Virus record (IMG/VR): IMGVR_UViG_3300047546_001556
DNA from: an uncultured virus (IMG/VR IMGVR_UViG_3300047546_001556)
Lineage: Duplodnaviria > Heunggongvirae > Uroviricota > Caudoviricetes > Autographiviridae
Length of the DNA stretch: 64,000 nucleotides
Direction: 5' to 3' (one strand)
The notes beneath the pieces were generated by a model. The model was given only the letters and a program-made list of their open reading frames with translations, had not been told where the DNA came from and made no database searches. The first letter of the stretch is position 1. Every line of letters starts with the position of its first letter. This document shows positions 3,731-44,924 of this stretch, piece by piece. Made by a program: the position numbers and the translations under genes.

Positions 3731-3846
3731 AGGCGCCGGGGGCGCAACAGGGGGTTGTGGCTAAGTTGCCCGGCTACGCCGAAAACGCCCTGGGCGCCTA
3801 GGGCGTAGGTATAAATGCTTAGGTGCGACGGGCTTAGTGGGTCTGA

Positions 3847-4035
3847 CTACTGGGCTTCAAGCTCGGTGGCGATCTCTTCCAGATACCAGGCGCTTTCTTG
3901 TCCAAGCCCTGCCAGTTTGATGACCACCTGATCCGCAGCAGCGCGAAGAACAGCAGCGGCGGTCACTGCATCGTCAATGTCAGCATCGCGGTAAGCATCA
4001 AGCACTGCTTGCACAGCAGGTGAAAGTTCAGACAT
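3847..4035 (-). CDS. Small cassette-borne hypothetical protein ('LRAAADQVV...ELEAQ' family)
   Basis: Homologous to 44689..44907 in protein sequence and in terminal DNA. Confidence 0.8.
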   Translation of the reverse strand: MSELSPAVQAVLDAYRDADIDDAVTAAAVLRAAADQVVIKLAGLGQESAWYLEEIATELEAQ

Positions 4036-4049
4036 AGAAGTGATGTTGA

Positions 4050-4394
4050 CTAATCGGGCAGGGATTCAAGAGCGCGGCGGATTTGGGACAGGTCGCATCC
4101 CAGGCCGTGCATACCCAGATCTGCATTGAGCGTATCTAGCTGCAGTAGCGCCTTTTCCTTTAAGCTCAGCGGCTTTGGGCGTCTGGCGGCGCGGAGCCTG
4201 TCAGCAACGTCGTAAGCAAGGTCATCGTTGACCCACTCACAGCACGCATCAAGTTCCTGAGTGGCACCCCAGCGGGTCGCCTGCAGAGCCACATAGAGAA
4301 CGAGATCAAAATCGTTGTCTTTGGCCTTATGCCAATCATCGCTCCATTGTTTGACTAGGTCGATGAACGGAGTGATTGTGTCGTCTTGAGTCAT
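4050..4394 (-). CDS. Cassette-borne hypothetical protein ('WGATQELDACCEW...RAARRPKP' family)
   Basis: 114-aa ORF bounded by two 15-bp sites; GAGG RBS upstream. Confidence 0.8.
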   Translation of the reverse strand: MTQDDTITPFIDLVKQWSDDWHKAKDNDFDLVLYVALQATRWGATQELDACCEWVNDDLAYDVADRLRAARRPKPLSLKEKALLQLDTLNADLGMHGLGCDLSQIRRALESLPD

Positions 4395-4418
4395 TGTTGA
4401 ACCTCGTAGTGTGTAGAA

Positions 4419-4583
4419 CTAAGTGATCTCAAGTTCGTCTGCTAGAGCGGTTAAGTAGCCGTTGATGAAGTGGTGGGCGACATAGACGCCCGCGTCTGCA
4501 TCTGTGTCGCCGAGGGGCGCGTCCATGCGCACAAACTCAGCCACCCACCGGAGCGTGAATGGGTCGAGGGTGCTGGGCGTCAC
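4419..4583 (-). CDS. Small hypothetical protein, 54 aa
   Basis: GTG start overlapping upstream stop; ends 'ALADELEIT' with its stop inside the site at 4407-4421. Confidence 0.6.
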   Translation of the reverse strand: MTPSTLDPFTLRWVAEFVRMDAPLGDTDADAGVYVAHHFINGYLTALADELEIT

Positions 4584-4822
4584 GAGAACAGCGCGGATTT
4601 GTGCAGCACGAAATCGTGATTGCCGCGGGCTGCGCTGCTCGTCCAGGTGAAGTCCGTGGGCGCAATCTGGCGCTCGGCATCCTGCAGCGTGTACCAGCGG
4701 TGGCGGCACGCTTCGCAATGCCGGCGGCGGAGGATGTGCAAGTAGTCGCGCGTGGGGCGAGTCAACACAACGCGTACTCGCTGGGAGCCGCACTCGGGGC
4801 AGGCGGTGGGGTGGTGCGTCAT
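4580..4822 (-). CDS. NrdR-like zinc-ribbon protein
   Basis: CPECG...ILRRRHCEACRHRWYT matches the NrdR N-terminal CxxC...RRRxCxxCxxRFTT pattern. Confidence 0.7.
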   Translation of the reverse strand: MTHHPTACPECGSQRVRVVLTRPTRDYLHILRRRHCEACRHRWYTLQDAERQIAPTDFTWTSSAARGNHDFVLHKSALFS

Positions 4823-5076
4823 TGGGTGCAGTGGGTGATCTCGGTGGGGATGAAGTCGCCGTTCGGATGGTGGTGCCAGACCTGAATCGTCGCGTCGAGC
4901 GTGTCGTCGCCGTACTCACTCACCAGCAGCTGGATCCACTGCCCAAGCCACTTGCCGGTGCGGAGGCCGCGCACCGTGAAGACCGCGTCGGGCTGGGGCG
5001 GGCATCCATGTACAGGCAGAAACTGCAGGACGGCGGTGGTGGTGTTGCGCGGCGGGAGATGAATGTCGTCGTTCAT
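4819..5076 (-). CDS. Hypothetical protein
   Basis: ATG (MNDDIH) overlaps the exonuclease stop; coupled to the downstream gene. Confidence 0.55.
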   Translation of the reverse strand: MNDDIHLPPRNTTTAVLQFLPVHGCPPQPDAVFTVRGLRTGKWLGQWIQLLVSEYGDDTLDATIQVWHHHPNGDFIPTEITHCTQ

Positions 5077-5798
5077 TGCTCGTAACCGCACTGGGCGGTG
5101 TAGTAGCTGTTGGCGCGGGTGATGAACTTGCGGCCGTAATCGCGCAGTTCGTCGCCTGTCAGTTCCCAGATGTCGGGGAAGTCGCCGTGCGGGCGGGCGA
5201 TCACCAGCAACGCGCGCTCTGGGACAACGCCGTACACGTAATCGATTGCCTTGGCGTATGCGCCGAGCTGGCAGCAGTAGTCCTCAACAAGCGCTGAATC
5301 GCGTTTGTTTTTGGAGGTCTTCCAATCCAAAAGCGTCAGCAGTTCGCTGGCGTCTTCGGGGGTCAGGTCGTCTCGCTGGGTGTAGTTGGTGTAGCCAAGG
5401 GCGTCGAATTGGCCGGCGAAGCGGGTGGGGTGGTACACCGCGCACTCCTGCGCCACCAGCTGGACCCAGTGCTGCTCAAGGAATGGGCGGATGTTGCGCC
5501 AATACGCCCCAAACGCAAAGTGCTTTGGGTCGGGTAGTGGGTCACCGGCGCTGTGGGCTAGGAGCCAGGTCTCGATTTGCTCGTGGGTCCAGGTGCCACG
5601 GGCTTTAGCGGCGTCGCTAATTGCTGCAGCGTCAGGACGCTTTAGCCATTGCTCCAGCCGCTTTTTGCTGGTGCCCGTCTTGCCGAGGATCGACGTAACT
5701 GAATCAAGGCGACCGACTGGTGAGGTGTAGCCGCTCTTGTCGGGGAGCCGAGTGACAACGCCTCGCGGCTTTGGAAGTTCGGTGAGGCGTTGCGGCAT
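5073..5798 (-). CDS. PD-(D/E)XK phage exonuclease
   Basis: 'SVTSIL', 'RGTWTH', 'FAGQFDAL', 'LLDWKTS', 'YCCQLGAY' motifs. Confidence 0.85.
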   Translation of the reverse strand: MPQRLTELPKPRGVVTRLPDKSGYTSPVGRLDSVTSILGKTGTSKKRLEQWLKRPDAAAISDAAKARGTWTHEQIETWLLAHSAGDPLPDPKHFAFGAYWRNIRPFLEQHWVQLVAQECAVYHPTRFAGQFDALGYTNYTQRDDLTPEDASELLTLLDWKTSKNKRDSALVEDYCCQLGAYAKAIDYVYGVVPERALLVIARPHGDFPDIWELTGDELRDYGRKFITRANSYYTAQCGYEQ

Positions 5799-5801
5799 CG
5801 G

Positions 5802-6005
5802 CTACTGGTTGAGCAGGGCGGTGGTAATGGCGTCGATGGAGGCGTCGCTGAGGTACAGCGACTTGGCGATGCTTTGGGACTTGACGGCAGTGCGAAGAGC
5901 CAACGCATTTGCGATGGCCTTCGCGTCTAGTTCGTTGACTGATGCGGCAAGCAGCTCCTCCTCTTCACTCAACCCGTCTTGATAGGTGTCGAGGAGGTGT
6001 TTCAC
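5802..6005 (-). CDS. Hypothetical protein
   Basis: Coupled ORF in the - operon. Confidence 0.55.
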   Translation of the reverse strand: MKHLLDTYQDGLSEEEELLAASVNELDAKAIANALALRTAVKSQSIAKSLYLSDASIDAITTALLNQ

Positions 6006-6244
6006 GCTGGGGTGGGTAGAGCTTTGCCCAAGGTTGCCGATGGGCGGACATGCACCACTACGACTGCACTCTCACCCGTGGTGCGGGTGTAGTTGCGGCA
6101 GGCGGCATGGCAGCTGTCAACGTCTACCCACTGCTCTGCCTCTTCTGGAAAACGAGTCCAGTCGAGGTCCGCGCCAGGGCGTTGATGTGCCAAGGCGCGG
6201 AAGTACCCGCGTGCTGTTTTGATCAGGTAGCGGGTGACGGTCAC
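6002..6244 (-). CDS. Hypothetical protein
   Basis: GTG overlapping the upstream TGA; '(V)TVTRYLIKTARGYF...WTRFPEEAEQW'. Confidence 0.5.
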   Translation of the reverse strand: MTVTRYLIKTARGYFRALAHQRPGADLDWTRFPEEAEQWVDVDSCHAACRNYTRTTGESAVVVVHVRPSATLGKALPTPA

Positions 6245-6879
6245 TTGCTGCTGAACGGGTTGCCGCCGTCGGTCAGGCGCCAGATGTCGGCACCCGCAGC
6301 TTTCGCTGCTTCCCATGCAGCGTTGACCTTCTCGGCCACAGCCTTGTCCTTCTTGCGAAGGGCAGGCTTCATGTCAGCCGCGTAGCTGGTTTTTGGGCTG
6401 GTGACTTTGGTGATCTCCAAATCCCAAGCGGCCAGATCTTCGTAGTCCGGGTCGCCGGTTTTGCGGTCGATGTCACGCAAGAGCGACACCTGGGTGTAGC
6501 TCAGCACCTTCACTGCTTCGGCGTCGTAGTCGTACACGAAGAAAGCCGCGCACTTCTTGATGGCCTTGCGGTCAGTGGGCTGCTTGGTGTCGTAGTCGAC
6601 TTCAAAAGCGACGGTCCCGCCGATCTGTTGCTCGTATTCAGCCAACACAGCGTCTGTCGGGTAATCGCCTGCAGCGATGCGCTTGGTTTTGCCGCCGTCA
6701 GCTTTGTCGAACCAGATTTCGTAACCGGTCAACGGCTCCTCACTAAGGATGGCGCACCTAAAGGGGTTAGGTAGTGTTTTGCCGATTTGAGACGGGTTGA
6801 TGTAGCCATCACGGCTGTTGCCGCTCTCGGTTTCCTTTGGGGCGAGTGAGGCAGAAAAGCTTTGCGAGAAGAAGGGCAC
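6241..6879 (-). CDS. Putative single-stranded DNA-binding/recombination protein
   Basis: 'GYINPSQI...FFVYDY...WDLEITK...GGNPF'; near the exonuclease, as is usual in recombination modules. Confidence 0.55.
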   Translation of the reverse strand: MPFFSQSFSASLAPKETESGNSRDGYINPSQIGKTLPNPFRCAILSEEPLTGYEIWFDKADGGKTKRIAAGDYPTDAVLAEYEQQIGGTVAFEVDYDTKQPTDRKAIKKCAAFFVYDYDAEAVKVLSYTQVSLLRDIDRKTGDPDYEDLAAWDLEITKVTSPKTSYAADMKPALRKKDKAVAEKVNAAWEAAKAAGADIWRLTDGGNPFSSK

Positions 6880-6934
6880 TGTGGAAGGTGTTCGGTGATT
6901 TGGGCCCTACCCTCCCTGGGTAGGTGCGCGTACG

Positions 6935-7150
6935 CTACTGGGGGCGGTTGAGTTCGTCAACGGCTTCTGCCGAAAGTTGGCGCAGGGCTCGCTCGATGTA
7001 CTCGCTTCGGTTGACGCCTTCGCGCCCTGCCAGGTAGGTCAGGATCTCCCAGCCGGTGTCAGTCATGTTCAGGCTGCGGCAACGCTTTAGCTCCCCCCAG
7101 TGAGTGGTGCGGGTGACCTGGGGCTTGGGCTGGACGATGTATTCGGGCAT
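6935..7150 (-). CDS. Ribbon-helix-helix DNA-binding protein
   Basis: 'RSLNMTDTGWEILTYLAGREGVNRSEYIERALR'. Confidence 0.7.
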   Translation of the reverse strand: MPEYIVQPKPQVTRTTHWGELKRCRSLNMTDTGWEILTYLAGREGVNRSEYIERALRQLSAEAVDELNRPQ

Positions 7151-7177
7151 CTCGCGTCTGTTAAGTGCGGTGCGAGT

Positions 7178-7900
7178 CTATCTACCTAGGTGGCTTTCGA
7201 TGTGTTCCCAGAGAGCGTCGCCGCTTAGGCCAATCAGCTTGCCGATTGCGTCCAAATCGTTCAGCAGGCGGTCGCTGCTCACCGTGTGGCTCAGAAGCAA
7301 GGGCTCCATCGTCGGACAGTCGTAGGCGAGCTCGCGGAGCTTGGCGTACCAGTCAATGTCGTGCTTGGCGTAGTAGGCGCGCAGGAAGGCGCCCAGCACC
7401 CGAGAGGCGTCGTCGGCGTCTGCTGGGTCCATGCGGCGGCTTTCGCGCACTGGGAGCTGGCGTAGGCCGCAGAACGCTTCAAACATTCCTACCGGACCAA
7501 GTGCGAAGCCATCGCGGTCGAGCATGGGGATGGTGTGCTGCCACAGCTCCTTGAAGCGTTGCGGCAGTTTCGGTGGGTATCCCAGGGAGCTGGTGTCCTC
7601 AATCAGCTCCTCGGGGTGTCCGATGCTGCGAGCTAGCGCAGCGTTAAAGCAGCCCAGCGCCAGGAAGGTTTTGGGGGCCGGTTCCGTCAGTACGCCGCGG
7701 TTAAAGCCGCCGATGGTGCTGCTGTGGATCGCCTTCGTGCCCAGGTACTCCGTGGCGATCTTCATGAACTCTGTCTGGGTGAACTGCCCGCTCAGCGCCC
7801 GGAACGCACTGGGGAATTGCAGGGCGCCCCGCTCAAGTGCGGTCAGCAGGGGTGGTGCCTGGTTTCCTTCCATCTCGTTGACCCTATGTAGGTAGGCCAA
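7178..7900 (-). CDS. Hypothetical protein, possible XRE-like regulator
   Basis: 240-aa ORF; 'TQTEF...IHSSTIGGFNRG..EPAPKTFLAL' loosely resembles an HTH; start uncertain. Confidence 0.5.
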   Translation of the reverse strand: MAYLHRVNEMEGNQAPPLLTALERGALQFPSAFRALSGQFTQTEFMKIATEYLGTKAIHSSTIGGFNRGVLTEPAPKTFLALGCFNAALARSIGHPEELIEDTSSLGYPPKLPQRFKELWQHTIPMLDRDGFALGPVGMFEAFCGLRQLPVRESRRMDPADADDASRVLGAFLRAYYAKHDIDWYAKLRELAYDCPTMEPLLLSHTVSSDRLLNDLDAIGKLIGLSGDALWEHIESHLGR

Positions 7901-7964
7901 GAGTACAGGTGCGGAGCTGGGGAGGGGCGCATTTCTTTTTCCCCCTTTAATAAGTCACCTCCTT

Positions 7965-8172
7965 TGAGTGTCCGTGTTAGCTGAAACCCCTTGGGGGGTG
8001 AGGAGTTTGAACACGGACAGGTATCACGGTCTTACACGGACACTGTCCGCGCAACAACGATCCTTATTGAGAATGACCCCCAGTTATCACGGTCACTGTC
8101 CGTGTTCTGACCGAGATCATTTGGCCGTGTACTTTCCTTGCGCTGCATGGGATCTCGGCGATCACGGACACA
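7965..8172. repeat. Iteron-like cluster, putative replication origin
   Basis: About ten CACGG(A/T)C(A) or TG(T/A)CCG copies in both orientations, directly downstream of the prim-pol/helicase. Confidence 0.7.
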
Positions 8173-8228
8173 AAAAGAGGGAGACTAATAAGGGCCTCCA
8201 TCAAAAAGTGCGGGTTGTGCTGCCCCAG

Positions 8229-10478
8229 CTACACGACGTTGATGCCGTCGCCTTTGCTGGTGAGCATTTGCCGCGCACTGGTGCGGACTTGCAGCCGGGG
8301 GCGGTAGTGGAGCACCGTTTTGTTTTTGACGCGGGCGTTGGGGAGCGCTTCTGACTCGAGCACAGTCCCCACCAGCCGGTCCATGTACCGCCGCAGGGTG
8401 CGCTCGTTGAACTGAAGGTCCAGCAAGCTCATCCATTCGCTGGGGATGCGCCACTCGTCGTCGGTGACCCGGCGGAACGCGGCGCCAAGGGTTTCAAGTG
8501 GTGAGCTGTCGCCTTCGTTGGGGTTCATCCACTGCCAGATGCCGCTGTAGCCATCGCGGGTGACGTGCAGCTTGCGCCCCGCATAGCCGCCGCGGCTCTT
8601 CTCCACCAGCAGGTGGCGAGTCTTGTTGAACGACGGCGACGTTTTCTTCTGCTTGATGAGTTCGGGGTCGTAGTACACCCACATCTCTTCGCAGCTGGCC
8701 TTGATTTGCTCCGTGCCGCTGAACCGCAGGGGTTCGTCGCGGCTGGTGTGGTGCAGCACCATGAACGCCGCTTTGGGCCAGCTGATGCCGTTGTGGCGTA
8801 CCAGCAGGCGGATGGGGTCGGCGTACGCAGGGTCGCCGATCTTCACGCCATGCACCGCCATGGACGCAAGGCAGTCGCAGATCACCAGATCCGGCGTGAA
8901 CTCGCTCAGCGTCTGGACGATGGGGATCATGTCCTCAAACGTTGAACCAGATGAGATGCGCAGCCGGTCTGCGCACTCCTGAGGCTTGATGCCCTCAAGC
9001 ACGAGGTCGCGCACCATGTCCTCATCGCTGCAATCGCTGGTGAGGATCAGCACGCGGCCGGGGGCATTGATTCCGTGGCGGGTGTTGCCAACGTCCACCG
9101 GCTGGCCGTTGAGGATGCGCCCAGCCAGGAAGCACGCCAGCGTCGTTTTGCCGCTGTGACTGCCACCCGCCAATACATGCACGCGCCGGGGGAGCAAGCC
9201 GTCGAGCACATCTGATGCCACGTTGTCCGTGCGTCGAGCGTTGATGATTTCCTCCATGGTGCGGGGACCGCCGCTGCTCACCACGCCCAGGTACTGCTCC
9301 AGCCGCAGGCGGTACAGGTCCGAAGGGTCGACACCGAACTCCCGACGCGCCCGGCCTTCCCATGCCGCAAGCGCCGCGTGGTCGTGCGAGACCTCGTTCA
9401 TCTTGTGCAGCATCTTTTTGAGCCCATCGACGTGCAGCTGGGCCTGCTCAATCGGAGGCAGCGACCACGTCGGCCACTGGAAGCCGTTGTTGCGGGCAAA
9501 GTGGAACAGCGAACCGATGCGAGCGCGTTGGTCCTCCGCAACGCTGCTGCGCGTCAGCGATGCGATGGTCTTCTCGGCGTTGTTGTTCTGGCCCCAGTCG
9601 TTGCGGGTGTTCCACTCGCTGTCCTCGACGATGGCGGTCGCAATGTCTCCACCGAACTCGTCAATCAGCCCGCAGATGATGCGGCGTACCTTCTCGTAGG
9701 TGCCGCTGCCACGCCCATCGCGATTTGGGCAAAACTCGAGTGCTTCCTTGGCAAGCTGCAACTTCTCGTGCGTCTTTAGGCGCTCCCAGGGCGTGGGGTC
9801 GTCCTCGCCGGAGCGGCGGCGCTCCTCCGGGCTGTCGGGAATTTGTTCGTCGAACTTGGCAATGATCCCCAGCAGTAGCCACTCGGGTGCGTCGGCCCAC
9901 TGCACTTCAGCAGGTGAGTGGGCCTTCATCCACCGGTAGTACAGCGGGTGCTGGTGGGAGCTTTGGGGGTGGTCGCCGCAGATGACGGCATGGCGACCGG
10001 TGCCGGTGCCATTCATCCAGATGGCTTCGAGAACCACCTTGTCGTCGACTTTCCAGCTGGCGCTGCGGTTCTCGAGCTGGGGCCACCAGTGCGGAGGCAC
10101 GCGCAGAAACACCTTGCCGCGGCCTTTCTTGCCGCTCTCGTTGCACAGCGTGGCTGGCAACGTCTTGGGGCTGCGGTGGAAATGGTCGTGGAAGGCGCGT
10201 AGGGCCTGGGAGCCGGTGCCGTCGAAGTCCACGACCAGCAGACCGCCGCTTTCGGGCCCGGTGATGGCGCCTACCCCAATAAGTTTGCTGCTCTTCCACC
10301 GCTCGTACGGGGTAGGGGATTTGTTGACCCGCAACACGTCTTCAAGGGTGCGACCGGAGCCCTTGTGGTTCCAGCCCTCCTCGAAACACACCTTGCTGTC
10401 GTCGTTGCCGCCGGTGAGGGCGTAGCGCCAGTGAGGTGGGAGCCCTTCCAGCAGGGCGGTTTGATCATCGCGGAGCAT
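8229..10478 (-). CDS. Bifunctional primase-polymerase (prim-pol) with PriCT-like region and RecA/AAA helicase
   Basis: 'GVGAITGPESGGLLVVDFDG', 'GSLFHFARNNG', Walker A 'AGGSHSGKTT', 'LVICD', 'VLHHT'; ATG at 10478 preferred over the track start. Confidence 0.85.
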   Translation of the reverse strand: MLRDDQTALLEGLPPHWRYALTGGNDDSKVCFEEGWNHKGSGRTLEDVLRVNKSPTPYERWKSSKLIGVGAITGPESGGLLVVDFDGTGSQALRAFHDHFHRSPKTLPATLCNESGKKGRGKVFLRVPPHWWPQLENRSASWKVDDKVVLEAIWMNGTGTGRHAVICGDHPQSSHQHPLYYRWMKAHSPAEVQWADAPEWLLLGIIAKFDEQIPDSPEERRRSGEDDPTPWERLKTHEKLQLAKEALEFCPNRDGRGSGTYEKVRRIICGLIDEFGGDIATAIVEDSEWNTRNDWGQNNNAEKTIASLTRSSVAEDQRARIGSLFHFARNNGFQWPTWSLPPIEQAQLHVDGLKKMLHKMNEVSHDHAALAAWEGRARREFGVDPSDLYRLRLEQYLGVVSSGGPRTMEEIINARRTDNVASDVLDGLLPRRVHVLAGGSHSGKTTLACFLAGRILNGQPVDVGNTRHGINAPGRVLILTSDCSDEDMVRDLVLEGIKPQECADRLRISSGSTFEDMIPIVQTLSEFTPDLVICDCLASMAVHGVKIGDPAYADPIRLLVRHNGISWPKAAFMVLHHTSRDEPLRFSGTEQIKASCEEMWVYYDPELIKQKKTSPSFNKTRHLLVEKSRGGYAGRKLHVTRDGYSGIWQWMNPNEGDSSPLETLGAAFRRVTDDEWRIPSEWMSLLDLQFNERTLRRYMDRLVGTVLESEALPNARVKNKTVLHYRPRLQVRTSARQMLTSKGDGINVV

Positions 10479-10607
10479 CAGTTTGGTAACGCGGCCAGGG
10501 AGAACGTAGCGGTGCCTGGCCGTGTCCGGTAGGTTTTGCGCACACCTACCCAAACCGGTTTGAAACGCCTACTGTCCCGGTTGCGTTCACTGCTGACTCG
10601 CGCACCA

Positions 10608-10796
10608 ATGTTCAAGCAAACCTTTGCTCTAGCCCCGGAAGAGCGGCGCGATTTGATACACGAGATCCAGCTGGATACGTTCCGGCACTTGGATATGGAT
10701 GAAGTTCGTTGGGTCACGGCTTGGGCCCTGCTGCTGGCGGAGCGCAGCGATGACTGCATCCTGCGCATCTGGGAGGAGATCAATGGCCGACGTTGA
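10608..10796 (+). CDS. Small hypothetical protein
   Basis: ATG (MFKQTF), overlaps PolA start. Confidence 0.55.
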   Translation: MFKQTFALAPEERRDLIHEIQLDTFRHLDMDEVRWVTAWALLLAERSDDCILRIWEEINGRR

Positions 10797-12600
10797 TCTC
10801 GCGCTTCTAAACGACCTGGAGAGGTTCGGTAGTGCGTTTGCGCTCGATATGGAAACGGCGCTGATCCCGCTGTGCTGGCAGGGGCGGGGGCAGCAGCGCC
10901 TGCTCCAGCTGCACAACGATCAGTACAGCAAGTGGTACGACCTGGCGTTGTGGGGCGACCCCCAGTGGGAGGCGCTGCGCATCTTCCTTGAGCAGCCGGG
11001 GCTGGAGGTGTACGGGCACAATCTCGCGTTCGACATCAAGTGCTTGATGGCGTCAGGGGTTGAGGTGCGCGGGAATCTGTACGACACGATGGTTGCCTCG
11101 CGCCTGATCAATCAGGGGCAGGCCAACGTCAAGCACTCGCTCGGCGATGTGGCGCGACGGGTGCTGGGCAAGGTGATGGATAAGTCGCTCCAGGCGCAGG
11201 ATTGGATGGCGGCGGAGCTCAGCGAGGCGGACCTCAAGTACGCCATGGAAGACGTGCGGGTGACGTGGGAATGCGCCCACTCGCTGCACGCACAGATCTA
11301 CGAACAGGGCTTGCTGGAGACGTACCGCCTTGAGACCGCGCTGATTCCGGTGGTGGCGAGGATGGAACTCAAGGGCATGTACGTCGACACCGAGCAGCTC
11401 AAGTCAGCTCGCGAGTTCTACAGCGCCAACAAGACCGAGGGTGTGGCGTTTTATGTGTCCCTGCTGGATGAGCAGCTCAAGGAGCGGGGGCATGAGGGTC
11501 TACCGCGTTTGGCATCCGGTGAGGTGAACCTGAACGCCAAGGCCACCGGCAAAGTGCGCGACGGCACGAAAGTGCCAGCGGGTTTCAACATGGCGTCGCC
11601 CCGGCAACATGCGGCGTTCTGGGGCGAACTCGGAATCATCCCAAAGGACGCTGCCGGGAAGGTTTCGCTCGACAAGAAGAACCTCGCGACGTACCGCCAT
11701 CACGAGATTGTGCGGGCGTATGAGTTCTACAAGAAGGCGGAGAAGCGCTCCACCATGGCAGAGAAACTGCTGGAGCATGTTGGCGCAGATCAGCGCATAC
11801 ATGCACAGTTCATGCCACTCCAGACGGCTACGGGTCGCTTCAGCGCCAGCAATCCCAACTTACAGCAGATACCGCGCGACCCTGAGTTCCGCAACGCATT
11901 CACTGCGCCGGATGGCTATGTGTTGGTGCAGGCGGATTACAGCGCGATGGAACTGCGCTATTTGGCCGCAGTGGCTAAGTGCAAGCCGATGCTGGATGCG
12001 TTTAACAGCGGGGCTGATTTACACACCCGCACCGCTGCGTTGATGTACGGCATCAGCGACGACAAGGTCGAGAAGTCCCAGCGCAGCGCTGCCAAGGCGT
12101 GCAACTTCGGGTTGGCGTATTCGAGTGCGCCGGGCGGGCTGCAGTCTTACTTTGCGACGCTCGGGCTCTACATCTCGATGAAAGAAGCCCGGGAGTTTTA
12201 CAACATGTGGCATACCGCTTACCCAGAAGTGGGTATTTGGCACCGCTGGTGTCAGCAGCAGGTCGACATCGGCAACCCAGTGCGCACCGCGATAGGCAGG
12301 CGCCGAGCGCTATACGGCGACGAGAACCGCGTCCAGATCTACGCCAACAACACGATCCAGGGCGGGTGCGCGGACATCATGAAGGCAGCGCTGATCTCGA
12401 TTCACCAGCAGCTACCCGTCGGCGCGTCGCTGGTGGCCTGCGTTCACGACGAGGTTTTATGCGAATGCTGTATAGACCAGGCGGACGAGGTGCTCGGCCT
12501 CGTAATAGGGGAGATGCAAGATGCTGCTGTGCCCATCGTGTCTGATGCAGTCGTGATGAAGGCCGAAGGTGGAGTCGTGCGCAGCTGGGGCGAAAAGTGA
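10783..12600 (+). CDS. polA: Family A DNA polymerase with 3'-5' exonuclease
   Basis: Exo 'LDMET', 'GHNLAFD', 'YAMED'; 'TATGRFSASNPNLQQIPR', motif A 'ADYSAMELR', motif B 'RSAAKACNFGLAY', motif C 'VHDE'; GGAGG RBS before ATG 10783. Confidence 0.95.
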   Translation: MADVDLALLNDLERFGSAFALDMETALIPLCWQGRGQQRLLQLHNDQYSKWYDLALWGDPQWEALRIFLEQPGLEVYGHNLAFDIKCLMASGVEVRGNLYDTMVASRLINQGQANVKHSLGDVARRVLGKVMDKSLQAQDWMAAELSEADLKYAMEDVRVTWECAHSLHAQIYEQGLLETYRLETALIPVVARMELKGMYVDTEQLKSAREFYSANKTEGVAFYVSLLDEQLKERGHEGLPRLASGEVNLNAKATGKVRDGTKVPAGFNMASPRQHAAFWGELGIIPKDAAGKVSLDKKNLATYRHHEIVRAYEFYKKAEKRSTMAEKLLEHVGADQRIHAQFMPLQTATGRFSASNPNLQQIPRDPEFRNAFTAPDGYVLVQADYSAMELRYLAAVAKCKPMLDAFNSGADLHTRTAALMYGISDDKVEKSQRSAAKACNFGLAYSSAPGGLQSYFATLGLYISMKEAREFYNMWHTAYPEVGIWHRWCQQQVDIGNPVRTAIGRRRALYGDENRVQIYANNTIQGGCADIMKAALISIHQQLPVGASLVACVHDEVLCECCIDQADEVLGLVIGEMQDAAVPIVSDAVVMKAEGGVVRSWGEK

Positions 12601-12648
12601 ACGACGAGCGGCTTCGAGAACTGCTGCAGATTGCAGCAGACCGCTACA

Positions 12649-13944
12649 TCAGAGGCGAAGCACCACGCTCGCCACTGCCTGGTGATCGATACGCACCTGC
12701 TCCACCAGCATCAAATACAGCTCCCGCAGCTGATCGTCGTCCAGCTGGCTCCAAACAGCGGGGTCCGCAAACACGTCCAGCAGCTGAGGGTCAGGGCCGA
12801 CTTGCTGCTGGAGTGCGGCAAGCCGCTCGCGTTTGATCGCGATGGCGGGCTCCAGGTCAGGGTCCGCCAACGCCTCCAGCTCGGCGATCTTGGTGCGCAG
12901 CTCCAGCACCTCCGGCTTCTCGGCGGTCACCCGCTGGGCGAGTGCCTCGTTGCGCTCAGACAGCGCTACGTTAATCGCTTCGCGCACCACATCTTCTCGC
13001 GTGCTTTTGTAGCGCTGCGAACATTCACGGCTCTTACATATAACGCTGGAGATGGTGCGGCTGCCGGCGTAGGTCATCTTGCGGCCGCACCCTGCGCATA
13101 CACAAAGACCTGTAAGTAGGCGCGGCTTGACCTGGGCGCTATGGCCCCAACGCCTGCGGTTGTCCTGGAGTTGCCTCTCCATGATTAAAAAGTTGCTGTG
13201 GGACAGCAGAGGCTGGTGGGTATCCCAGACAATCTCCTTGTAGGTGTTATCGCTGCTCTTCAAATAGCCCAGACCACCTCTTAACACGGGATTTAGCAGC
13301 CATGCCTTAACAGCACGGCAGGAGCTGAGGGGGATTGGCCCCAGTTCCATCGCGTGCCACTTGTCTAGGGCCGTATTCATCCGCCAGTCGCACCTCTTAC
13401 AAAGCTCAAGAAAGCGGCTAGCGCGGGGAAATTCAATGGGGTCTGGCTCCAACGCGCTTTTATCGGCGTTGACGCGGTAGCCCCAGCAGACCTTGCCGCG
13501 CAGCGGGCGGGCGCGTTTGCGGCCCTCGGAGTAGCCGGCACGTACTCGCATCGACAGCATGCGGCTCTCCATCTCCGCCATGGACGTGGCGATGCGCGAG
13601 AGCAGGAAGCCCTGGGGTGTCTGGGCGTCGACGGTGCCGCCGTCTAGGCAGGTGATGGTGACGCCGCGCTTGGCAGCAATGGCGATCAGCGCGTCGGTCG
13701 CAGCCGCGTCCCGGCCCAGGCGGTCGATGCGGGTACAGACCACCTCTGTGATCTGGCGCGTGTCAATGAGATGCAGAAGTTCGAGGTAGCCGGGGCGCTC
13801 CTGTGAGAGCCCGCTCTCCACGTCTTCGATGAGGCGATCAACCCCTGTGCTGGCAATGCGTGAGCGCTGGTTCTGCAGCGCAGAGAGCTGCTCTTCCGTG
13901 TCTGTCGACACCCGCAGGTAGCCAATGCGCAGGGCTTGTCCCAT
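12649..13944 (-). CDS. Large serine recombinase (integrase)
   Basis: 'YLRVST' catalytic Ser, 'RIDRLGRD', recombinase domain, 'LLTGLCVCAGCG...C...C' zinc ribbon, coiled coil. Confidence 0.95.
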   Translation of the reverse strand: MGQALRIGYLRVSTDTEEQLSALQNQRSRIASTGVDRLIEDVESGLSQERPGYLELLHLIDTRQITEVVCTRIDRLGRDAAATDALIAIAAKRGVTITCLDGGTVDAQTPQGFLLSRIATSMAEMESRMLSMRVRAGYSEGRKRARPLRGKVCWGYRVNADKSALEPDPIEFPRASRFLELCKRCDWRMNTALDKWHAMELGPIPLSSCRAVKAWLLNPVLRGGLGYLKSSDNTYKEIVWDTHQPLLSHSNFLIMERQLQDNRRRWGHSAQVKPRLLTGLCVCAGCGRKMTYAGSRTISSVICKSRECSQRYKSTREDVVREAINVALSERNEALAQRVTAEKPEVLELRTKIAELEALADPDLEPAIAIKRERLAALQQQVGPDPQLLDVFADPAVWSQLDDDQLRELYLMLVEQVRIDHQAVASVVLRL

Positions 13945-14017
13945 GGGACTGACGCTATATGGGGTTGACTTCCTGTGGGGAACAGATACTCTCTGCCTGT
14001 CCTTACAGGAACGACCG

Positions 14018-14238
14018 TGACTTCCCTTGCGCCACGGCGCATCTCAGCGTTGGCTGAGGATTGTGTGCAGGAGGCTGCAGCGTTGGTGCAGCTCCTCAAC
14101 CGCATCTCAGATGCGGACCACCAGCTGTCTGATGAGTTCACCCAGCAGGAGCTGACGACCGCGATTCGCGCCACCCGTAATGCCATCAACGGCATCAAGC
14201 AGGTGGTACTCGCGGAGGTTCGGAGGCATGGGCTGTGA
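14018..14238 (+). CDS. Hypothetical protein (helical)
   Basis: GTG after AGGA RBS; overlaps next start. Confidence 0.5.
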
Positions 14239-14477
14239 GCGCCGATCAGATGGTCGACCACCCGCCCCACTACACCCAGGGCGGGATTGAGTGCATCGAG
14301 GCGATCAGGGCAGCGCTGACTCCTGACGAGTACCGGGGCTACCTAAAAGGTCAGATCTTTAAGTACGCCTGGCGTGAGCGCCATCGCAACCGCCTTCAGG
14401 ACGTTCGCAAGCTGACTTGGTACGCCAACGAGCTGATCGCGCACTTGGAGAAGACGCTCAAGGTGCTGGAGAAGTGA
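14235..14477 (+). CDS. DUF3310-family protein
   Basis: 'VDHPPHYTQGGIECIEAI...GYLKGQIFKYAWR...QDVRK'. Confidence 0.85.
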   Translation: MSADQMVDHPPHYTQGGIECIEAIRAALTPDEYRGYLKGQIFKYAWRERHRNRLQDVRKLTWYANELIAHLEKTLKVLEK

Positions 14478-14671
14478 TGAAGGCTTCTCCTTATCAGCAG
14501 CTCTACGCCGCCGGCGACATGAGCCTTCTGGATGTAGTGAACCTCGCCAAGTGCGCAGCAGATCGAGCGCGCTCTTGCGCAGGTCAGCCGGGCCAGCGCT
14601 TCATGCGTGAGTACAAGTCCGCGCTTCTGTGGTCGACTGTGGCCGCAACTTACAAACTCTCCTCTTACTGA
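14477..14671 (+). CDS. Hypothetical protein
   Basis: TGATG coupling at both ends (MKASPY...). Confidence 0.55.
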   Translation: MKASPYQQLYAAGDMSLLDVVNLAKCAADRARSCAGQPGQRFMREYKSALLWSTVAATYKLSSY

Positions 14672-14871
14672 TGTCTAACAATGATTTGCGCCCGTGGAAC
14701 GGGCCGCTTTACGCGGCGGATTGTGACCCCCGCGTGCAGCAAAAAGTCCAGGATCGACTGGATGAGTGGTATGTACGTGATGGCCGGTATCGGCCTGACC
14801 ACCCTTATCACTCGTCTTACACCGGTCTTGCTGCCAAGTACGCCTCTGAGGACACCACCGATGACAACTGA
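14671..14871 (+). CDS. Hypothetical protein
   Basis: 'LDEWYVRDGRYRPDHPYHSSYTGL'; coupled start. Confidence 0.6.
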   Translation: MSNNDLRPWNGPLYAADCDPRVQQKVQDRLDEWYVRDGRYRPDHPYHSSYTGLAAKYASEDTTDDN

Positions 14872-15025: not shown

Positions 15026-15036
15026 GGTAGGGCGTC

Positions 15037-17248: not shown

Positions 17249-17269
17249 AGCAACCTAGGCGTACAGACC

Positions 17270-19799: not shown

Positions 19800-20120
19800 T
19801 TAAGCAGCAGCCGGTGGGTCTTGAGCAGGTTCCTGCACATCCTCAGGAGTGGGTTCCGGCAGCGGGGTCAGATCCGGCGGAGGTGCCACGAACACGTCGT
19901 TTGCCTCGTCGTAGGTATCGCCGGGTCCAGCGTACTTGCCACGGATGCGGCCGTTGTAGCTGGTCTGTACCCATCGACTATCGGCACCGTACAGCGATTT
20001 GCAGAAGGCAATACCCGCTGCTTCGGATTCATTGCCGTCTGGATCAAGGCACTCGGCGTTGTTGATGACAATCACCTGAGTCACCATGTTGGATTCGTTG
20101 AGCTTTGCGAAGTGTGCCAT
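19800..20120 (-). CDS. Tail-fibre-associated small protein
   Basis: 'MAHFAKLNE.N.VTQVIV...WVQTSYN...YAGPGDTYD...F'; coupled to the Gly-rich gene. Confidence 0.7.
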   Translation of the reverse strand: MAHFAKLNESNMVTQVIVINNAECLDPDGNESEAAGIAFCKSLYGADSRWVQTSYNGRIRGKYAGPGDTYDEANDVFVAPPPDLTPLPEPTPEDVQEPAQDPPAAA

Positions 20121-40224: not shown

Positions 40225-40725
40225 TTAGGATCCTCCTCCCATAGAAATAGTGAGTGGGTTAGAGAGTTGTGACGTACCTAGAACCGCCTTTTTACGAGCC
40301 TTCTTACGTACAGACGACTTGATCTTTGCTGCGTCTGGGTCTTGCCCAACCAGCTTCATACCCATTGCACGGTTAGCAGCCTCTTCAGAACGACGAGCCA
40401 TTTCCTCGTTTTGAGCAAGCTGCTGCTGTAAAGCCGCCTCCTGAGCTGCCTGGGCAGCGGCAAACTGTGCCTCCTGACTAGCCATCTGCATCTCAGCCTG
40501 GGACATCTGCCAGGCCAGAGTCGCATTAAACTGATCAAGAGAGTCTTGCCTAGACTGCTCATATTGAGCTTTGTTTTGTGCAAGGCTTGCGTTAGCTTGT
40601 TCGGCCGCCGCACGCTGCGACTTCTTAACAAGCTTGTTTTGCTGCCTCTGGAATCGCTGCTGACGCTGGCGTTCCTTTTTAATCTGTGAACTGGAGGGGC
40701 CACCCCCTCCGCCTCCTCCACACAT
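40225..40725 (-). CDS. Hypothetical virion-associated protein
   Basis: 'MCGGG' start, Gln-rich; T7 gp6.7-like position. Confidence 0.65.
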   Translation of the reverse strand: MCGGGGGGGPSSSQIKKERQRQQRFQRQQNKLVKKSQRAAAEQANASLAQNKAQYEQSRQDSLDQFNATLAWQMSQAEMQMASQEAQFAAAQAAQEAALQQQLAQNEEMARRSEEAANRAMGMKLVGQDPDAAKIKSSVRKKARKKAVLGTSQLSNPLTISMGGGS

Positions 40726-43165: not shown

Positions 43166-43343
43166 TCTTGAGATATGCTTGATTCAGTTGGTTTACTTTT
43201 GCGTCGATGAGGTGAAAGGAAGTCACCCATCCTTTTTCTGTCCCTACGACGATCTCTACGTCACCGTTAGGAAGGGACGTAATTAACGGCTCGGGCGGTG
43301 TCAGGGAACTCTCTGATGAAGACATGCTTGATTTGCTCTGCAA
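43155..43343 (-). CDS. Small hypothetical protein
   Basis: 'GWVTSFHLIDAKVNQL'; fills the gap between thyX and RNR; start uncertain. Confidence 0.55.
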   Translation of the reverse strand: MQSKSSMSSSESSLTPPEPLITSLPNGDVEIVVGTEKGWVTSFHLIDAKVNQLNQAYLKNVS

Positions 43344-43905
43344 CGTGTCTGTGCTCCTTCTGAGTTGCAGGATCTGTACGCAGCTGAAGGTAATGGATCC
43401 AAGAACGGAGCGTGCCGTTCATATACATACGGGTTGTCGTGGCTAGAGGGAGCACCTCTCTGGCACACTCCTTAGCAACACCAACATCAAGCAGACGGCG
43501 ATAGAGACGATACGAATCGGCGTAATGCTTAGCAATGTCGTATTGCAGTAGATCGACTAGACCAGGGTCTAAGTCGTCGATACTGTTCTGCCTATTCTTG
43601 GTGTCTTGCCTACGCAGCTCAGGCAGCTCAGGAGGTGCGTCAACCTCTGCATAGCGTTGACTAAATTCCTGATATGAAAACGACCTATGCCGAAGCACCT
43701 GTTGGGCGATACTTCTGGTCGTCTCAATCTCAACGCACATGTTTACCATTTCAAATGGAGACCAGTGCTTGTTCTTGATTAGATAGCTGATAAGCCTAGG
43801 AGCTGTCTCCTTGTTGTTTTCATTAGCGGGATTTGAAACACGGGCCATCTTGGCGATGAGTTCGTCACCACCCTCAGTGGCCCAGACAAGCTTGACTGAG
43901 CTCAT
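43267..43905 (-). CDS. thyX: Flavin-dependent thymidylate synthase
   Basis: Signature 'RHRSFSYQEFSQRY', 'HWSPFE', 'ECAREVLP'. Confidence 0.95.
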   Translation of the reverse strand: MSSVKLVWATEGGDELIAKMARVSNPANENNKETAPRLISYLIKNKHWSPFEMVNMCVEIETTRSIAQQVLRHRSFSYQEFSQRYAEVDAPPELPELRRQDTKNRQNSIDDLDPGLVDLLQYDIAKHYADSYRLYRRLLDVGVAKECAREVLPLATTTRMYMNGTLRSWIHYLQLRTDPATQKEHRHVAEQIKHVFIREFPDTARAVNYVPS

Positions 43906-44279
43906 ACAAGATCAATTAATTGAGGTGGTTTATAGTTGGGGCCTTTGAGAACCTTGCCATCGTCTCGGCGTAACGGCTTGCCATCCACTAACTTGCTGAG
44001 GTTGGATTGATGAACTCGCTCAAGAGCTTCATCAAGGTCCCAACCCGCAGCTGCTGCAAACTGGTACACCACATAAGCTAGATCTGCTAACTCCTTAAGT
44101 AGGCCCTCACGCGATCTCTTACAGGTGATCAGCTTGCTAACAGTGTCAGCAGATTCCAGCACCTCCTTAAACTCCTCTACGATGAGACGGAGTTGAAGAT
44201 CAATCTGTTCCTTGTTAAGGGCACCTGTGGGCTGGCCCATCAGGCTACGAAATTCAACGGCTTCTGCGTAATGACTCAT
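43902..44279 (-). CDS. MazG-like / PRA-PH family NTP pyrophosphohydrolase
   Basis: 'LIVEEFKE', 'KELADLAYV', 'VHQSNLSK...DGKVLKGPNY'. Confidence 0.85.
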   Translation of the reverse strand: MSHYAEAVEFRSLMGQPTGALNKEQIDLQLRLIVEEFKEVLESADTVSKLITCKRSREGLLKELADLAYVVYQFAAAAGWDLDEALERVHQSNLSKLVDGKPLRRDDGKVLKGPNYKPPQLIDLV

Positions 44280-44491
44280 CGGTTACGGCTAGCGGAAACG
44301 AGATAGATCTTTTTGTCGATGTAGGCTTTTGCCTTGAGTAGGTCATCAAGCTCTTCCTCGTATTGCTTATGGCCAGCACGACATACGTACTTGACCACAT
44401 TGCCAAGGAAGTAATCCAGCTTCTGGTCCGCAATAAAGTCCCAGACCTCAATGGCCCCACGCTGGTAGTGGGAAGGCGAGTATTTGGACAT
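44276..44491 (-). CDS. DUF3310-family protein
   Basis: 'PSHYQRGAIEVWDFI...GNVVKYVCRAG.K...DLLKA..Y'. Confidence 0.85.
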   Translation of the reverse strand: MSKYSPSHYQRGAIEVWDFIADQKLDYFLGNVVKYVCRAGHKQYEEELDDLLKAKAYIDKKIYLVSASRNR

Positions 44492-44502
44492 ATGTATATT
44501 GT

Positions 44503-44924
44503 TAGTGGGTTTGACTACTCGGATGGGTTGAACTGTCAGGAAATTCCTGAATATTTGACACGTCTGGGCAACGTGTAAGGCCGCCTTACAAATTGCTTAA
44601 TTGCTGGGGCGGTGGGTTAAAAATAAGCTCGGCTGACAAAGAATGCGCTCACCAAGCCCCCGCCGCACAAAAACAGAAGGGGGTCTGACTACTGGGCTTC
44701 AAGCTCATCAGCGATTCTGAGCAGCTCATAGCGGATGCCGTAGCTCTCAAGTTTTTCTGGCACCACCTGATCGGCAGCAGTGCGAAGGGCGGCGGCAAGA
44801 GATACTCGTTCCTCCTCGCACATCTTCATCCGATCAGGATCATTCGTAAAAGCAACTACCACTGCTTTAGTTGCAGAGGAAAGGTTGCGCGAAACAAGGT
44901 CAGCCATAGAAGTGTGTAGATCTA
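44503..44924 (-). mobile_element. Putative gene-cassette array 2 (three 15-bp sites, two cassettes)
   Basis: TAGT-GGGTTTG-ACTA (44503), AAGG-GGGTCTG-ACTA (44677), AAGT-GTGTAGA-TCTA (44910). Confidence 0.6.
44689..44907 (-). CDS. Small cassette-borne hypothetical protein ('LRTAADQVV...ELEAQ' family)
   Basis: Homologous to 3847..4035. Confidence 0.8.
   Translation of the reverse strand: MADLVSRNLSSATKAVVVAFTNDPDRMKMCEEERVSLAAALRTAADQVVPEKLESYGIRYELLRIADELEAQ

What the first reader, a model, noticed from the sequence alone, without database searches (positions are those of the whole stretch)
3835..44924. Candidate undescribed phage gene-cassette system: 15-bp (T/A)AG(T/G)-N7-(A/T)CTA sites bounding small genes in two separate arrays
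Seen: six sites, + strand: TAGT-GGGTCTG-ACTA (3835), AAGT-GATGTTG-ACTA (4038), TAGT-GTGTAGA-ACTA (4407), TAGT-GGGTTTG-ACTA (44503), AAGG-GGGTCTG-ACTA (44677), AAGT-GTGTAGA-TCTA (44910). All are in the same orientation, with inverted 4-bp arms and an exactly 7-bp asymmetric spacer. In five sites the arm is the TAG stop of the upstream ORF. The first site of both arrays has the same spacer (GTGTAGA). The site after the homologous 'ELEAQ' gene has the same spacer (GGGTCTG) in both arrays, although the neighbouring genes are unrelated. Established: inverted arms around a 6-8 bp spacer is the core-site geometry of tyrosine recombinases, and genes with no obvious promoter separated by recombination sites is the logic of integrons and pdif modules. 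These sites have no attC hairpin and are shorter than dif. Inference: small genes are captured and exchanged as site-bounded cassettes (ACTT/ACTA..ATG..TAGT-spacer), with crossover next to the conserved C|(A/C)CT on the coding strand. No dedicated recombinase is adjacent, so the enzyme would act in trans (phage Int at 53801, a host Xer-like enzyme, or something else).
Basis: partly seen in the sequence, partly recalled or inferred. Interest (0 to 1): 0.9.

Follow-up and report, generated by a model that had tools for sequence, protein, structure and literature searches.

The report
Conserved linker between small cyanophage genes
A fixed 15-base linker that starts with the stop codon TAG separates small accessory genes in a group of Synechococcus phages and marks the points where these genes have been swapped, but nothing shows a dedicated cut-and-paste enzyme behind it.

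Summary
All six sites exist as described. The genes lie on the minus strand. There the sites read TAG-TC-N5-(C/A)ACT(A/T), running from the stop codon of one small gene towards the next ATG.

The refined motif is real:
- Window: 3 hits against 0.3 expected.
- 74 related viral loci: 27 hits on the gene strand, 0 on the other; 0-1 hits at every other spacing tried.

The motif is confined to arrays of two virus-only small-gene families in S-CBS2-like Synechococcus phages. About ten 5-base "core" variants recur with different genes on either side. Homology breaks fall at the site edges.

The two "arrays" lie in two different phage genomes joined in one contig. The second is a three-site insert in a T7-like phage. 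Close relatives have an empty junction with no site.

Best reading: a conserved intercistronic linker, probably for coupled translation, that also serves as a boundary for modular exchange by general recombination. The nearest analogue is the PeSLs of T4-like phages. An integron-like or Xer-like system is not supported. A T7-type promoter is rejected.

The parts
3835..3849 (-). Site 1: TAGTCAGACCCACTA. Its TAG is the stop of ELEAQ copy 1. It is the last site of array A and no gene starts within 40 nt.
3847..4035 (-). Family 1 ('ELEAQ') gene, copy 1, 62 aa. No Pfam or PHROG match.
4038..4052 (-). Site 2: TAGTCAACATCACTT. Its TAG is the stop of the family 2 gene. The ATG of ELEAQ copy 1 follows 2 nt after the site.
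   Evidence: Metagenome contigs diverge at 4039.
4050..4394 (-). Family 2 gene, 114 aa (MTQDDTIT...IRRALESLPD). Matches phrog_32006, function unknown.
4407..4421 (-). Site 3: TAGTTCTACACACTA. Its TAG ends an open frame whose tail (...ADELEIT) resembles family 1. The leader carries GAGG, then the ATG of family 2.
   Evidence: A contig diverges exactly at 4421.
4580..4822 (-). NrdR-type zinc-ribbon protein, 80 aa, just upstream of array A. It is not specifically associated with the motif.
5073..5798 (-). Exonuclease (phrog_298), part of the general recombination module upstream of the array.
12649..13944 (-). Large serine recombinase (integrase type) of the part-A phage, 8 kb from the array.
19850..20056 (.). 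207-bp stretch, 97% identical to the end of the contig. This is where the GC-rich part A is joined to the T7-like genome.
44276..44491 (-). DUF3310 gene of the T7-like phage, downstream of the insert.
44503..44517 (-). Site 4: TAGTCAAACCCACTA. It ends no gene. An 11-nt leader follows, then the ATG of DUF3310.
44518..44676 (-). Non-coding stretch between sites 5 and 4. It has no homolog in the fetched loci, no Rfam family and no significant fold.
44677..44691 (-). Site 5: TAGTCAGACCCCCTT. Its TAG is the stop of ELEAQ copy 2. The right arm is degenerate.
44689..44907 (-). Family 1 ('ELEAQ') gene, copy 2, 72 aa.
44910..44924 (-). Site 6: TAGATCTACACACTT. Its TAG is the stop of the 71-aa gene. The left arm is degenerate.
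44922..45137 (-). 71-aa membrane-like gene (phrog_3344). In relative L090 it overlaps the DUF3310 start directly, which is the empty junction.
51060..53411 (-). T7-type single-subunit RNA polymerase of the podovirus part.
53801..54670 (-). Tyrosine integrase of the T7-like phage, 9 kb from the insert.

Best explanation
The sites are copies of a conserved 15-nt intercistronic linker. On the coding strand it reads TAG-TC, then five variable bases, then (C/A)ACT(A/T). It closes one small ORF with its TAG and leads, after 0-14 further G-poor bases that mostly lack a Shine-Dalgarno sequence, into the next ATG.

The linker is native to arrays of small accessory genes. These comprise two virus-only families with conserved ends and variable middles, plus a few other genes. 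The arrays sit next to the exonuclease/recombination module of S-CBS2-like Synechococcus phages.

Inferred function: the linker supports termination-coupled re-initiation, so that promoterless and SD-less genes are translated as a chain.

Shown consequence: because the same short sequence recurs at every boundary, it is where modules have been exchanged between genomes. The exchange most likely runs by short-homology or general recombination (phage exonuclease and annealing functions, or the host's) followed by selection, not by a dedicated site-specific recombinase.

The 'array' at 44.5-44.9 kb is a piece of such an array (site, ELEAQ gene, site, 159-nt remnant, site) that was inserted by illegitimate recombination into a T7-like podovirus infecting the same kind of host.
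For: Motif is real, oriented and of fixed spacing:
- 27 hits on the gene strand against 0 opposite. Spacings N3, N4, N6 and N7 give 0-1.
- In the window, 3 hits against 0.30 expected.

Localised to arrays:
- G002 has 5 sites within 1.1 kb and G003 has 4 within 2 kb.
- In 12 whole records there are 25 hits against 5 for the reversed-pattern control.

Anchored on the stop codon:
- In 47 of 74 distinct relaxed matches the TAG ends an open frame of at least 35 codons or directly follows a stop.
- The distance to the next ATG varies from 0 to 13 nt, while the inner spacing never varies.

Module boundary:
- The same core occurs with unrelated left or right flanks. GCTTC, for example, has 8 different contexts.
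- There are hybrid junctions such as the one in L033.
- Contigs from public runs diverge at 4039 (inside site 2, giving another downstream gene) and at 4421 (edge of site 3).
- BLAST segment ends pile up at positions 0, 6, 10 and 14-15 of the site.

Insert in the T7-like phage:
- L090 and L091 have the 71-aa gene abutting DUF3310 with no motif.
- L096 has ELEAQ, one site, then DUF3310.
- Only 1 of 43 other relatives examined carries the gene and motif there.

Host and lineage:
- Family 2 occurs in Synechococcus phages S-CBS2, S-H1 and S-RIP1.

Two replicons:
- Depth of part A against the T7-like part is 40-67 against 440-915 in X1, and 5-15 against 0-2.8 in X4.
- The T7-like genome closes on itself.
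Against: - No experiment or RNA data bear on translation coupling. That step is inference from position, strand and missing SD sequences.
- The linker also follows the last gene of arrays, where no ATG follows (site 1; L029, L046, L070). It is therefore tied to the 3' end of a gene rather than to a downstream start.
- Some junctions inside arrays are plain overlaps without the motif (G003).
- 49 of 66 distinct family 1 genes elsewhere do without it, so it is not required for expression of these genes.
- Arms conserved around a variable centre of fixed length fit a protein-binding or recombination site at least as well as a ribosomal signal.
- Most homology breakpoints lie elsewhere. Only about 7-11% of BLAST segment ends are within the sites, and many lie at the conserved/variable borders inside the genes (for example 4082).
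- Genome-wide the strict motif is barely above the control: 36 against 28 in 50 records.
Confidence: 0.5

Rival explanations
1. A true site-specific cassette system. A recombinase binds the 4-5-bp arms and exchanges strands at the edges of the 5-7-bp centre. The core variants act as compatibility classes, so cassettes move between genomes at sites of like core, while unlike cores within one array prevent deletion.
For: - Fixed geometry with conserved arms and a variable centre.
- A limited set of about ten cores recurs across genomes with different genes on both sides. Within one array the cores are mostly different: G002 has five different ones.
- All sites are in one orientation.
- A site follows the last gene of an array, as attC does.
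- In G005, G013 and G050 a tyrosine integrase lies directly beside the array end. In G013 the integrase stops on the TAG that the terminal site shows on the other strand.
Against: - The arms are far shorter than any known recombinase core site.
- There is no hairpin.
- The empty junction in T7-like relatives has no site.
- Recombinases are not consistently present. A tyrosine type occurs in 6 of 38 records and a serine type in 1 of 38. Complete motif-bearing records G008 and G012 have neither.
- Hybrid junctions join unlike cores (L033).
- No site-to-site deletion appears among the listed joints.
- No case of a single site against site-cassette-site was found among the fetched loci.
- Int sits at the downstream, convergent end, as in lambda-like synteny, not as in integrons.
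Confidence: 0.12
2. The linker has no function of its own. It is the junction of an ancestral gene unit that was multiplied by tandem duplication and inherited. Exchange at gene borders is the usual outcome of illegitimate recombination plus selection for intact genes.
For: - Arrays contain tandem paralogs of family 1 and family 2, with conserved coding ends on both sides of the linker.
- The motif is restricted to a sub-lineage. The same gene pair is joined by plain overlaps in S-CBS2 and in many loci.
- Many breakpoints lie inside the genes.
Against: - The centre is saturated with substitutions while the arms and the exact spacing are kept: 27 hits against 0-1. Yet the stretch right after the motif varies in length from 0 to 13 nt. 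That is a pattern of constraint, not of neutral descent.
- The motif also bounds genes unrelated to the two families.
Confidence: 0.2
3. A recognition site for a phage or host factor other than the ribosome. Either an operator for a small dimeric DNA-binding protein (TAGT and ACTA are inverted, 11 bp centre to centre), or an RNA site for an endoribonuclease or translational repressor that cuts or controls the polycistronic message between cistrons.
For: - Bipartite shape and strict spacing.
- Ribbon-helix-helix and zinc-ribbon proteins are encoded near the arrays.
- Strict strand bias fits an RNA site.
Against: - Symmetry holds for only four bases, and the fifth and eleventh positions are both C.
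- Variants of position 4 are not compensated, so there is no support for a helix.
- The NrdR-type zinc ribbon occurs in motif-bearing and motif-lacking records alike and is missing from complete motif-bearing G005 and G008.
- The sites survive, partly decayed, in a T7-like phage that lacks those proteins.
Confidence: 0.15
4. Promoters for a T7-type single-subunit RNA polymerase.
For: - The right arm and its spacing loosely resemble the core of the T7 promoter printed in PMC3950665.
- The second locus lies in a T7-like phage with its own RNA polymerase.
Against: - PF00940 is absent from 20 of 20 motif-bearing records, 4 of them at least 90% complete. The positive control G001 scores 1.3e-74.
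- The motif is not spread over the T7-like genome.
- The Syn5 promoter has no good match in the window: 2 hits with 3 mismatches against 1.24 expected.
Confidence: 0.02

Closest known systems
PeSLs (promoter-early stem-loops) of T4-like phages (PMC2839356 and PMC4122927; abstracts and outlines read)
   Same: - Short conserved sequences repeated between small non-essential genes in variable regions.
- All in the gene orientation.
- Points of exchange between otherwise unrelated sequences.
- A regulatory element whose repetition drives modular shuffling by homologous recombination.
   Different: - PeSLs are a sigma-70-type promoter plus a terminator stem-loop, and they make mini-circles.
- The present linker is only 15 nt. 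It has no room for a promoter and no stem-loop. It starts with the stop codon and has a variable 5-nt centre with recurrent variants.
- No circles have been seen.
Integron gene cassettes with attC sites and IntI (recalled general knowledge, no paper read here)
   Same: - Promoterless small ORFs in one orientation.
- Each is followed by a site at its 3' end, and the site often overlaps the stop codon.
- Different genes lie between like sites.
   Different: - attC sites are long imperfect palindromes that fold as single strands. Here the site is 15 nt without a fold.
- There is no intI-attI-Pc platform at the upstream end.
- The empty junction carries no site.
- Most homologous genes elsewhere have no site.
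Xer/dif-type sites and pdif modules (recalled general knowledge)
   Same: Inverted arms around a short central region. Modules are bounded by sites, and the enzyme is supplied in trans.
   Different: - dif-type sites have two 11-bp arms and a 6-bp centre and alternate in orientation around modules.
- Here the arms are 4-5 bp and all sites are direct.
Linker sequences of the modular theory of phage evolution, and morons of lambdoid phages (recalled: Botstein 1980; Hendrix and colleagues)
   Same: - Conserved short sequences at module borders are proposed as crossover points.
- Single accessory genes are inserted between two genes that abut in relatives, as at 44.5-44.9 kb.
   Different: - Morons usually carry their own promoter and terminator.
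- The linker here is a defined motif of fixed geometry, documented in many genomes.

Membership tests
Integron (IntI / attC cassettes) | attC site: an imperfect palindrome of roughly 57-141 bp with paired R and L boxes that folds as a single strand. | tested here: not met
   - The conserved element is 15 nt.
- Only a 3-4-bp stem is possible.
- Variants are not compensated.
- The 221-nt region around sites 4-5 folds no better than shuffles, z = -1.05.
Integron (IntI / attC cassettes) | An integron integrase gene with attI and a promoter at the upstream end of the array, divergent from the cassettes. | tested here: not met
   - PF00589 is found in 6 of 38 records.
- Where it is adjacent (G005, G013, G050) it sits at the downstream end and is convergent.
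- Whether these integrases carry the IntI-specific insertion was not tested.
Integron (IntI / attC cassettes) | An empty or recipient site keeps one copy of the recombination site. | tested here: not met
   L090 and L091: the 71-aa gene overlaps the DUF3310 start and no motif is present.
Xer/dif-like sites (pdif modules) | A 28-bp site: two 11-bp arms around a 6-bp centre. | tested here: not met
   Conservation is limited to TAGTC and (C/A)ACT(A/T). Flanking positions follow the neighbouring genes.
PeSL-type regulatory cassettes | A sigma-70-type promoter followed or preceded by a terminator stem-loop. | tested here: not met
   - Junctions are 15-30 nt from stop to ATG, so there is no room for -35 and -10 boxes. 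I judged this by eye; the promoter and terminator scan tool was not run.
- No hairpin was seen by eye at the junctions listed. Only the region around sites 4-5 was folded.
PeSL-type regulatory cassettes | Exchange points between unrelated sequences in variable regions. | tested here: met
   Discordant flanks appear at identical sites, and breakpoints fall at site edges.
T7-type (single-subunit RNAP) promoter | A cognate single-subunit RNA polymerase is encoded by the same genome. | tested here: not met
   PF00940 is found in 0 of 20 motif-bearing records. The control G001 is positive.
T7-type (single-subunit RNAP) promoter | Several near-identical copies are spread over the genome ahead of gene blocks. 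| tested here: not met
   In the T7-like part only the three sites of the insert are found.

The most novel reading that the evidence does not exclude
Phages of picocyanobacteria carry an integron-like exchange platform of their own kind. It would consist of 15-bp sites whose 5-nt cores act as compatibility classes. These would be cut and rejoined by a phage recombinase, for instance the tyrosine integrase that abuts the terminal site in G005, G013 and G050 and that in G013 ends on the site's opposite-strand TAG. Small accessory genes would then circulate as cassettes among siphoviruses and even into T7-like podoviruses.
Probability: 0.1. Interest if true: 0.9.

Novelty: new variant of a known kind. 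Interest (0 to 1): 0.55.

Why it matters
How phages gain and swap small accessory genes is mostly explained by random illegitimate recombination plus selection. Defined boundary elements are known for T4-like phages only (PeSLs).

This finding offers a second, much smaller and differently built boundary element, in temperate-type cyanophages of fresh and estuarine waters. It has a fixed geometry and a small alphabet of core variants, and it was carried across phage families with one gene.

It gives a concrete sequence handle for three things:
- finding accessory-gene arrays in metagenomes;
- following gene flow between co-infecting cyanophages;
- testing by simple reporter and co-infection experiments whether a regulatory linker doubles as a recombination hotspot.

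My two literature searches for such a motif found nothing. The supplement of PMC11880802, which may list repeated motifs predicted for Syn5-like phages, was not looked at.

Tried and rejected
- **T7-type promoter.** Rejected: polymerase absent in 20 of 20 records, control positive. No Syn5-like promoter in the window.
- **Short core AMCCACTMA as a genome-wide signal.** Not enriched: 42 against 38.5.
- **Strict motif across whole records.** 36 hits against 28 for the reversed control in 50 records, so it is not a genome-wide signal.
- **Rfam.** No family in the window.
- **Fold of the region between sites 5 and 4.** Not significant. That stretch and the stretch after site 1 have no homolog among the fetched loci.
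- **NrdR-type zinc ribbon as the cognate binder.** No association.
- **Isolates by DNA and protein.**
  - Part A has no DNA match in the phage collection.
  - ELEAQ has no tblastn match there.
  - Its PolA is under 30% identical to anything.
- **Bacterial genomes.** No relative of ELEAQ by protein. The 20-nt pattern found one phage-like MAG contig with an array (L178) and one chance match (L179), so no host could be named this way.
- **Protein atlas.** Both families are virus-only with no named family.
- **RNA evidence.** No RNA holder is listed among the runs, so expression, transcript ends and processing could not be examined.
- **Site-to-site deletions or circles.** None among the 15 joints listed (19 more were not shown). 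All runs were contigs, which cannot show rare forms.
- **Single site against site-cassette-site among fetched loci.** None found with ungapped 50-nt flanks at 80% identity or more.


Full report
**1. The observation**

The local genes are on the minus strand. On that strand the sites read as follows:

| Site | Sequence on the coding strand |
|---|---|
| 1 | TAGTCAGACCCACTA |
| 2 | TAGTCAACATCACTT |
| 3 | TAGTTCTACACACTA |
| 4 | TAGTCAAACCCACTA |
| 5 | TAGTCAGACCCCCTT |
| 6 | TAGATCTACACACTT |

At five of the six sites the TAG is the in-frame stop of an open frame of 72-166 codons. Site 4 ends no gene.

The tighter form TAGTC-N5-MACTW is enriched: 3 against 0.30, with 0 of 100 shuffles reaching 3.

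**2. Two genomes, not one**

The window comes from a contig of 65,670 bases.

- Bases 1 to about 19,850 have 57-67% G+C. They carry a family A DNA polymerase, a primase-helicase-like protein, a large serine recombinase, thyX, a sigma-70 factor and a lysin.
- The rest has 46-57% G+C. It is a T7-like cyanopodovirus related to S-CBP2.

The public viral record G001 equals window 21,063-65,670. Its last 207 bases match window 19,850-20,056 at 97%.

Contigs of four public runs were laid on 2,000-21,999:

| Run | Depth on part A | Depth on T7-like part |
|---|---|---|
| X1 | 40-67 | 440-915 |
| X4 | 5-15 | 0-2.8 |
| X2 | about 55 | 53-112 |

An X1 contig leaves the window at 19,850 with the letters that precede the repeat in G001, so the podovirus genome closes on itself. 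The two 'arrays' therefore sit in two replicons. These are joined through a shared 207-bp stretch, either by assembly or by a real but unproven junction.

**3. The motif outside the window**

The ELEAQ protein has 93 relatives. They share a conserved N-terminus, a very conserved C-terminal third and a variable middle.

In 79 viral loci that encode relatives, many genes end with GAGCTTGAAGCCCAG-TAG followed by TC, five bases and CACTA or CAACT.

In 74 non-redundant loci (220 kb), TAGTC-N5-MACTW occurs 27 times on the gene strand and never on the other. With 3, 4, 6 or 7 bases in the middle it occurs 0-1 times.

The matches cluster:
- five within 1.1 kb in G002;
- four within 2 kb in G003;
- three in G006;
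- in 12 whole records, 25 hits against 5 for the reversed pattern.

Over 50 whole records the excess is small, 36 against 28. The motif is therefore a local feature of arrays, not a genome-wide signal.

**4. What the arrays are**

Maps show chains of 50-120-aa genes. The main members are:
- family 1: MSELSPAAQAVL...ELEAQ;
- family 2: MTQQHPITPPPEL...IRRALESLPD. Window 4050-4394 belongs here and matches phrog_32006.

A few unrelated genes also occur. The arrays lie downstream of an exonuclease and other early genes.

Neither family has a Pfam family or a named relative. Family 2 occurs in Synechococcus phages S-CBS2, S-H1 and S-RIP1. In S-CBS2 it is followed by a family 1-like gene with overlapping junctions and no motif. 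After family 2, S-H1 has a weak form of the linker: the same centre and right arm as site 2, with a different left arm.

Of 66 distinct family 1 genes, 33 end in TGA, 21 in TAG and 12 in TAA. Only 17 have the motif on either side. The motif thus belongs to a sub-lineage, not to the gene family.

**5. Anatomy**

- The left arm is the stop codon plus TC.
- The centre is five G-poor bases.
- The right arm is (C/A)ACT(A/T).
- After it come 0-13 bases before the ATG, mostly without a Shine-Dalgarno sequence. The first gene of an array does have GAGG.
- The inner spacing never changes, although the centre is saturated with changes and the following leader varies in length. That argues for constraint.
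- Only four bases of the arms are inverted repeats. Variants at position 4 are not compensated, so a helix is not supported.
- The motif also follows the last gene of arrays.

**6. Mosaicism**

About ten centres recur across genomes: AGACC, ACCTT, ATTAC, GCTTC, CGATC, AACAT, CACCT, CTACA, ATTCC and AAGCC.

- The same centre is found with unrelated genes on the left or on the right.
- Some centres go with the upstream gene. AGACC and ACCTT always follow family 1.
- The right arm plus leader goes with the downstream gene.
- Hybrids exist.

In metagenome contigs the same family 2 gene and site 2 are followed, from within the right arm, by another gene. Another contig replaces everything to the left of site 3 exactly at the TAG. 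BLAST segment ends pile up at positions 0, 6, 10 and 14-15 of the site. Yet only about 7-11% of all ends lie there; many lie at conserved/variable borders inside the genes.

**7. The podovirus locus**

In relatives L090 and L091 the 71-aa gene directly abuts or overlaps DUF3310, and no motif is present. L096 has a family 1 gene, one site and DUF3310. The window has site 6, ELEAQ, site 5, 159 non-coding bases, site 4 and DUF3310.

Of 43 other relatives inspected, one (L096) has the gene and motif there. The insert thus brought its own sites into a junction that had none.

**8. Mechanisms weighed**

- **T7-type promoter: excluded.** The polymerase is absent from 20 of 20 motif-bearing records, with a positive control. 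The Syn5 promoter, printed in PMC3950665 (passages read), has no good match.
- **Dedicated recombinase: not supported.** The evidence is given in the rival-explanation and membership-test sections. It rests.
- **One point in favour of a recombinase.** In G005, G013 and G050 a tyrosine integrase abuts the array end. In G013 it stops on the opposite-strand TAG of the terminal site.
- **NrdR-type zinc ribbon near the arrays: no association**.

**9. Verdict**

The sites are a real, previously unreported 15-nt linker of small-gene arrays in S-CBS2-like Synechococcus phages.

- Shown: its geometry, strand, anchoring on the stop codon, localisation, lineage restriction, role as a frequent module boundary, and transfer with one gene into a podovirus.
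- Inferred: that it serves termination-coupled translation, and that exchange runs through general or short-homology recombination.

The closest analogue is the PeSL of T4-like phages (abstracts of PMC2839356 and PMC4122927). The linker fails the PeSL definition (no promoter, no stem-loop) but works alike as an exchange point.

Noticed in passing
window 1-21062 versus 21063-64000; junction at 19850-20056: The contig joins a GC-rich siphovirus-like genome piece to a complete, circularly closing T7-like cyanopodovirus. The join runs through a 207-bp stretch, 97% identical in both, that lies inside a small minus-strand ORF. Depths differ more than 10-fold in X1, differ in X4, and are equal in X2. 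It could be a chimeric assembly or a real co-integrate.
   Followed up: partly
G013 (locus L172, 3597-4463); G005 (L173); G050: A tyrosine integrase lies convergent to the array and directly beside its last site. In G013 the integrase's stop codon is the TAG that the 15-bp site shows on the opposite strand, so two convergent genes end on one site.
   Followed up: partly
window 3847-4035, 4050-4394 and 44689-44907; alignment A1: Both small-gene families have near-invariant N- and C-terminal ends and a hypervariable middle. Family 2 followed by family 1 is a recurrent gene pair in many phages, including S-CBS2 gp065 and gp066. Their function is unknown; they might form a complex.
   Followed up: partly
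window 51033-51055, 53589-53611, 55793-55815, 58195-58217 (minus strand): A 23-nt repeated leader-like sequence (TCACTT.CAC... on the coding strand) occurs four times in the early region of the T7-like phage, mostly just upstream of start codons. It could be an early promoter or leader element.
   Followed up: no
window 40245-40265 (minus strand): A stretch ending in CCCACTCACTAT lies at the end of the 166-aa gene, just ahead of the gene that precedes the portal gene. It loosely resembles the core of the T7 promoter printed in PMC3950665.
   Followed up: no
window 15161-15874 (+) and 43267-43905 (-): There are two thyX genes, one in each of the two joined genomes.
   Followed up: no
window 17274-17288 (minus strand): A seventh match to the relaxed pattern (TAGATAGGGTCACTA) overlaps the stop of the 132-aa gene, but in another frame. 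It is probably chance.
   Followed up: partly
locus L178 (MAG contig labelled Gammaproteobacteria), 1969-3030: A 44.8-kb contig binned as a gammaproteobacterial MAG carries a typical array (family 1, family 2 and two canonical sites). It is probably a phage contig placed in the wrong bin.
   Followed up: no
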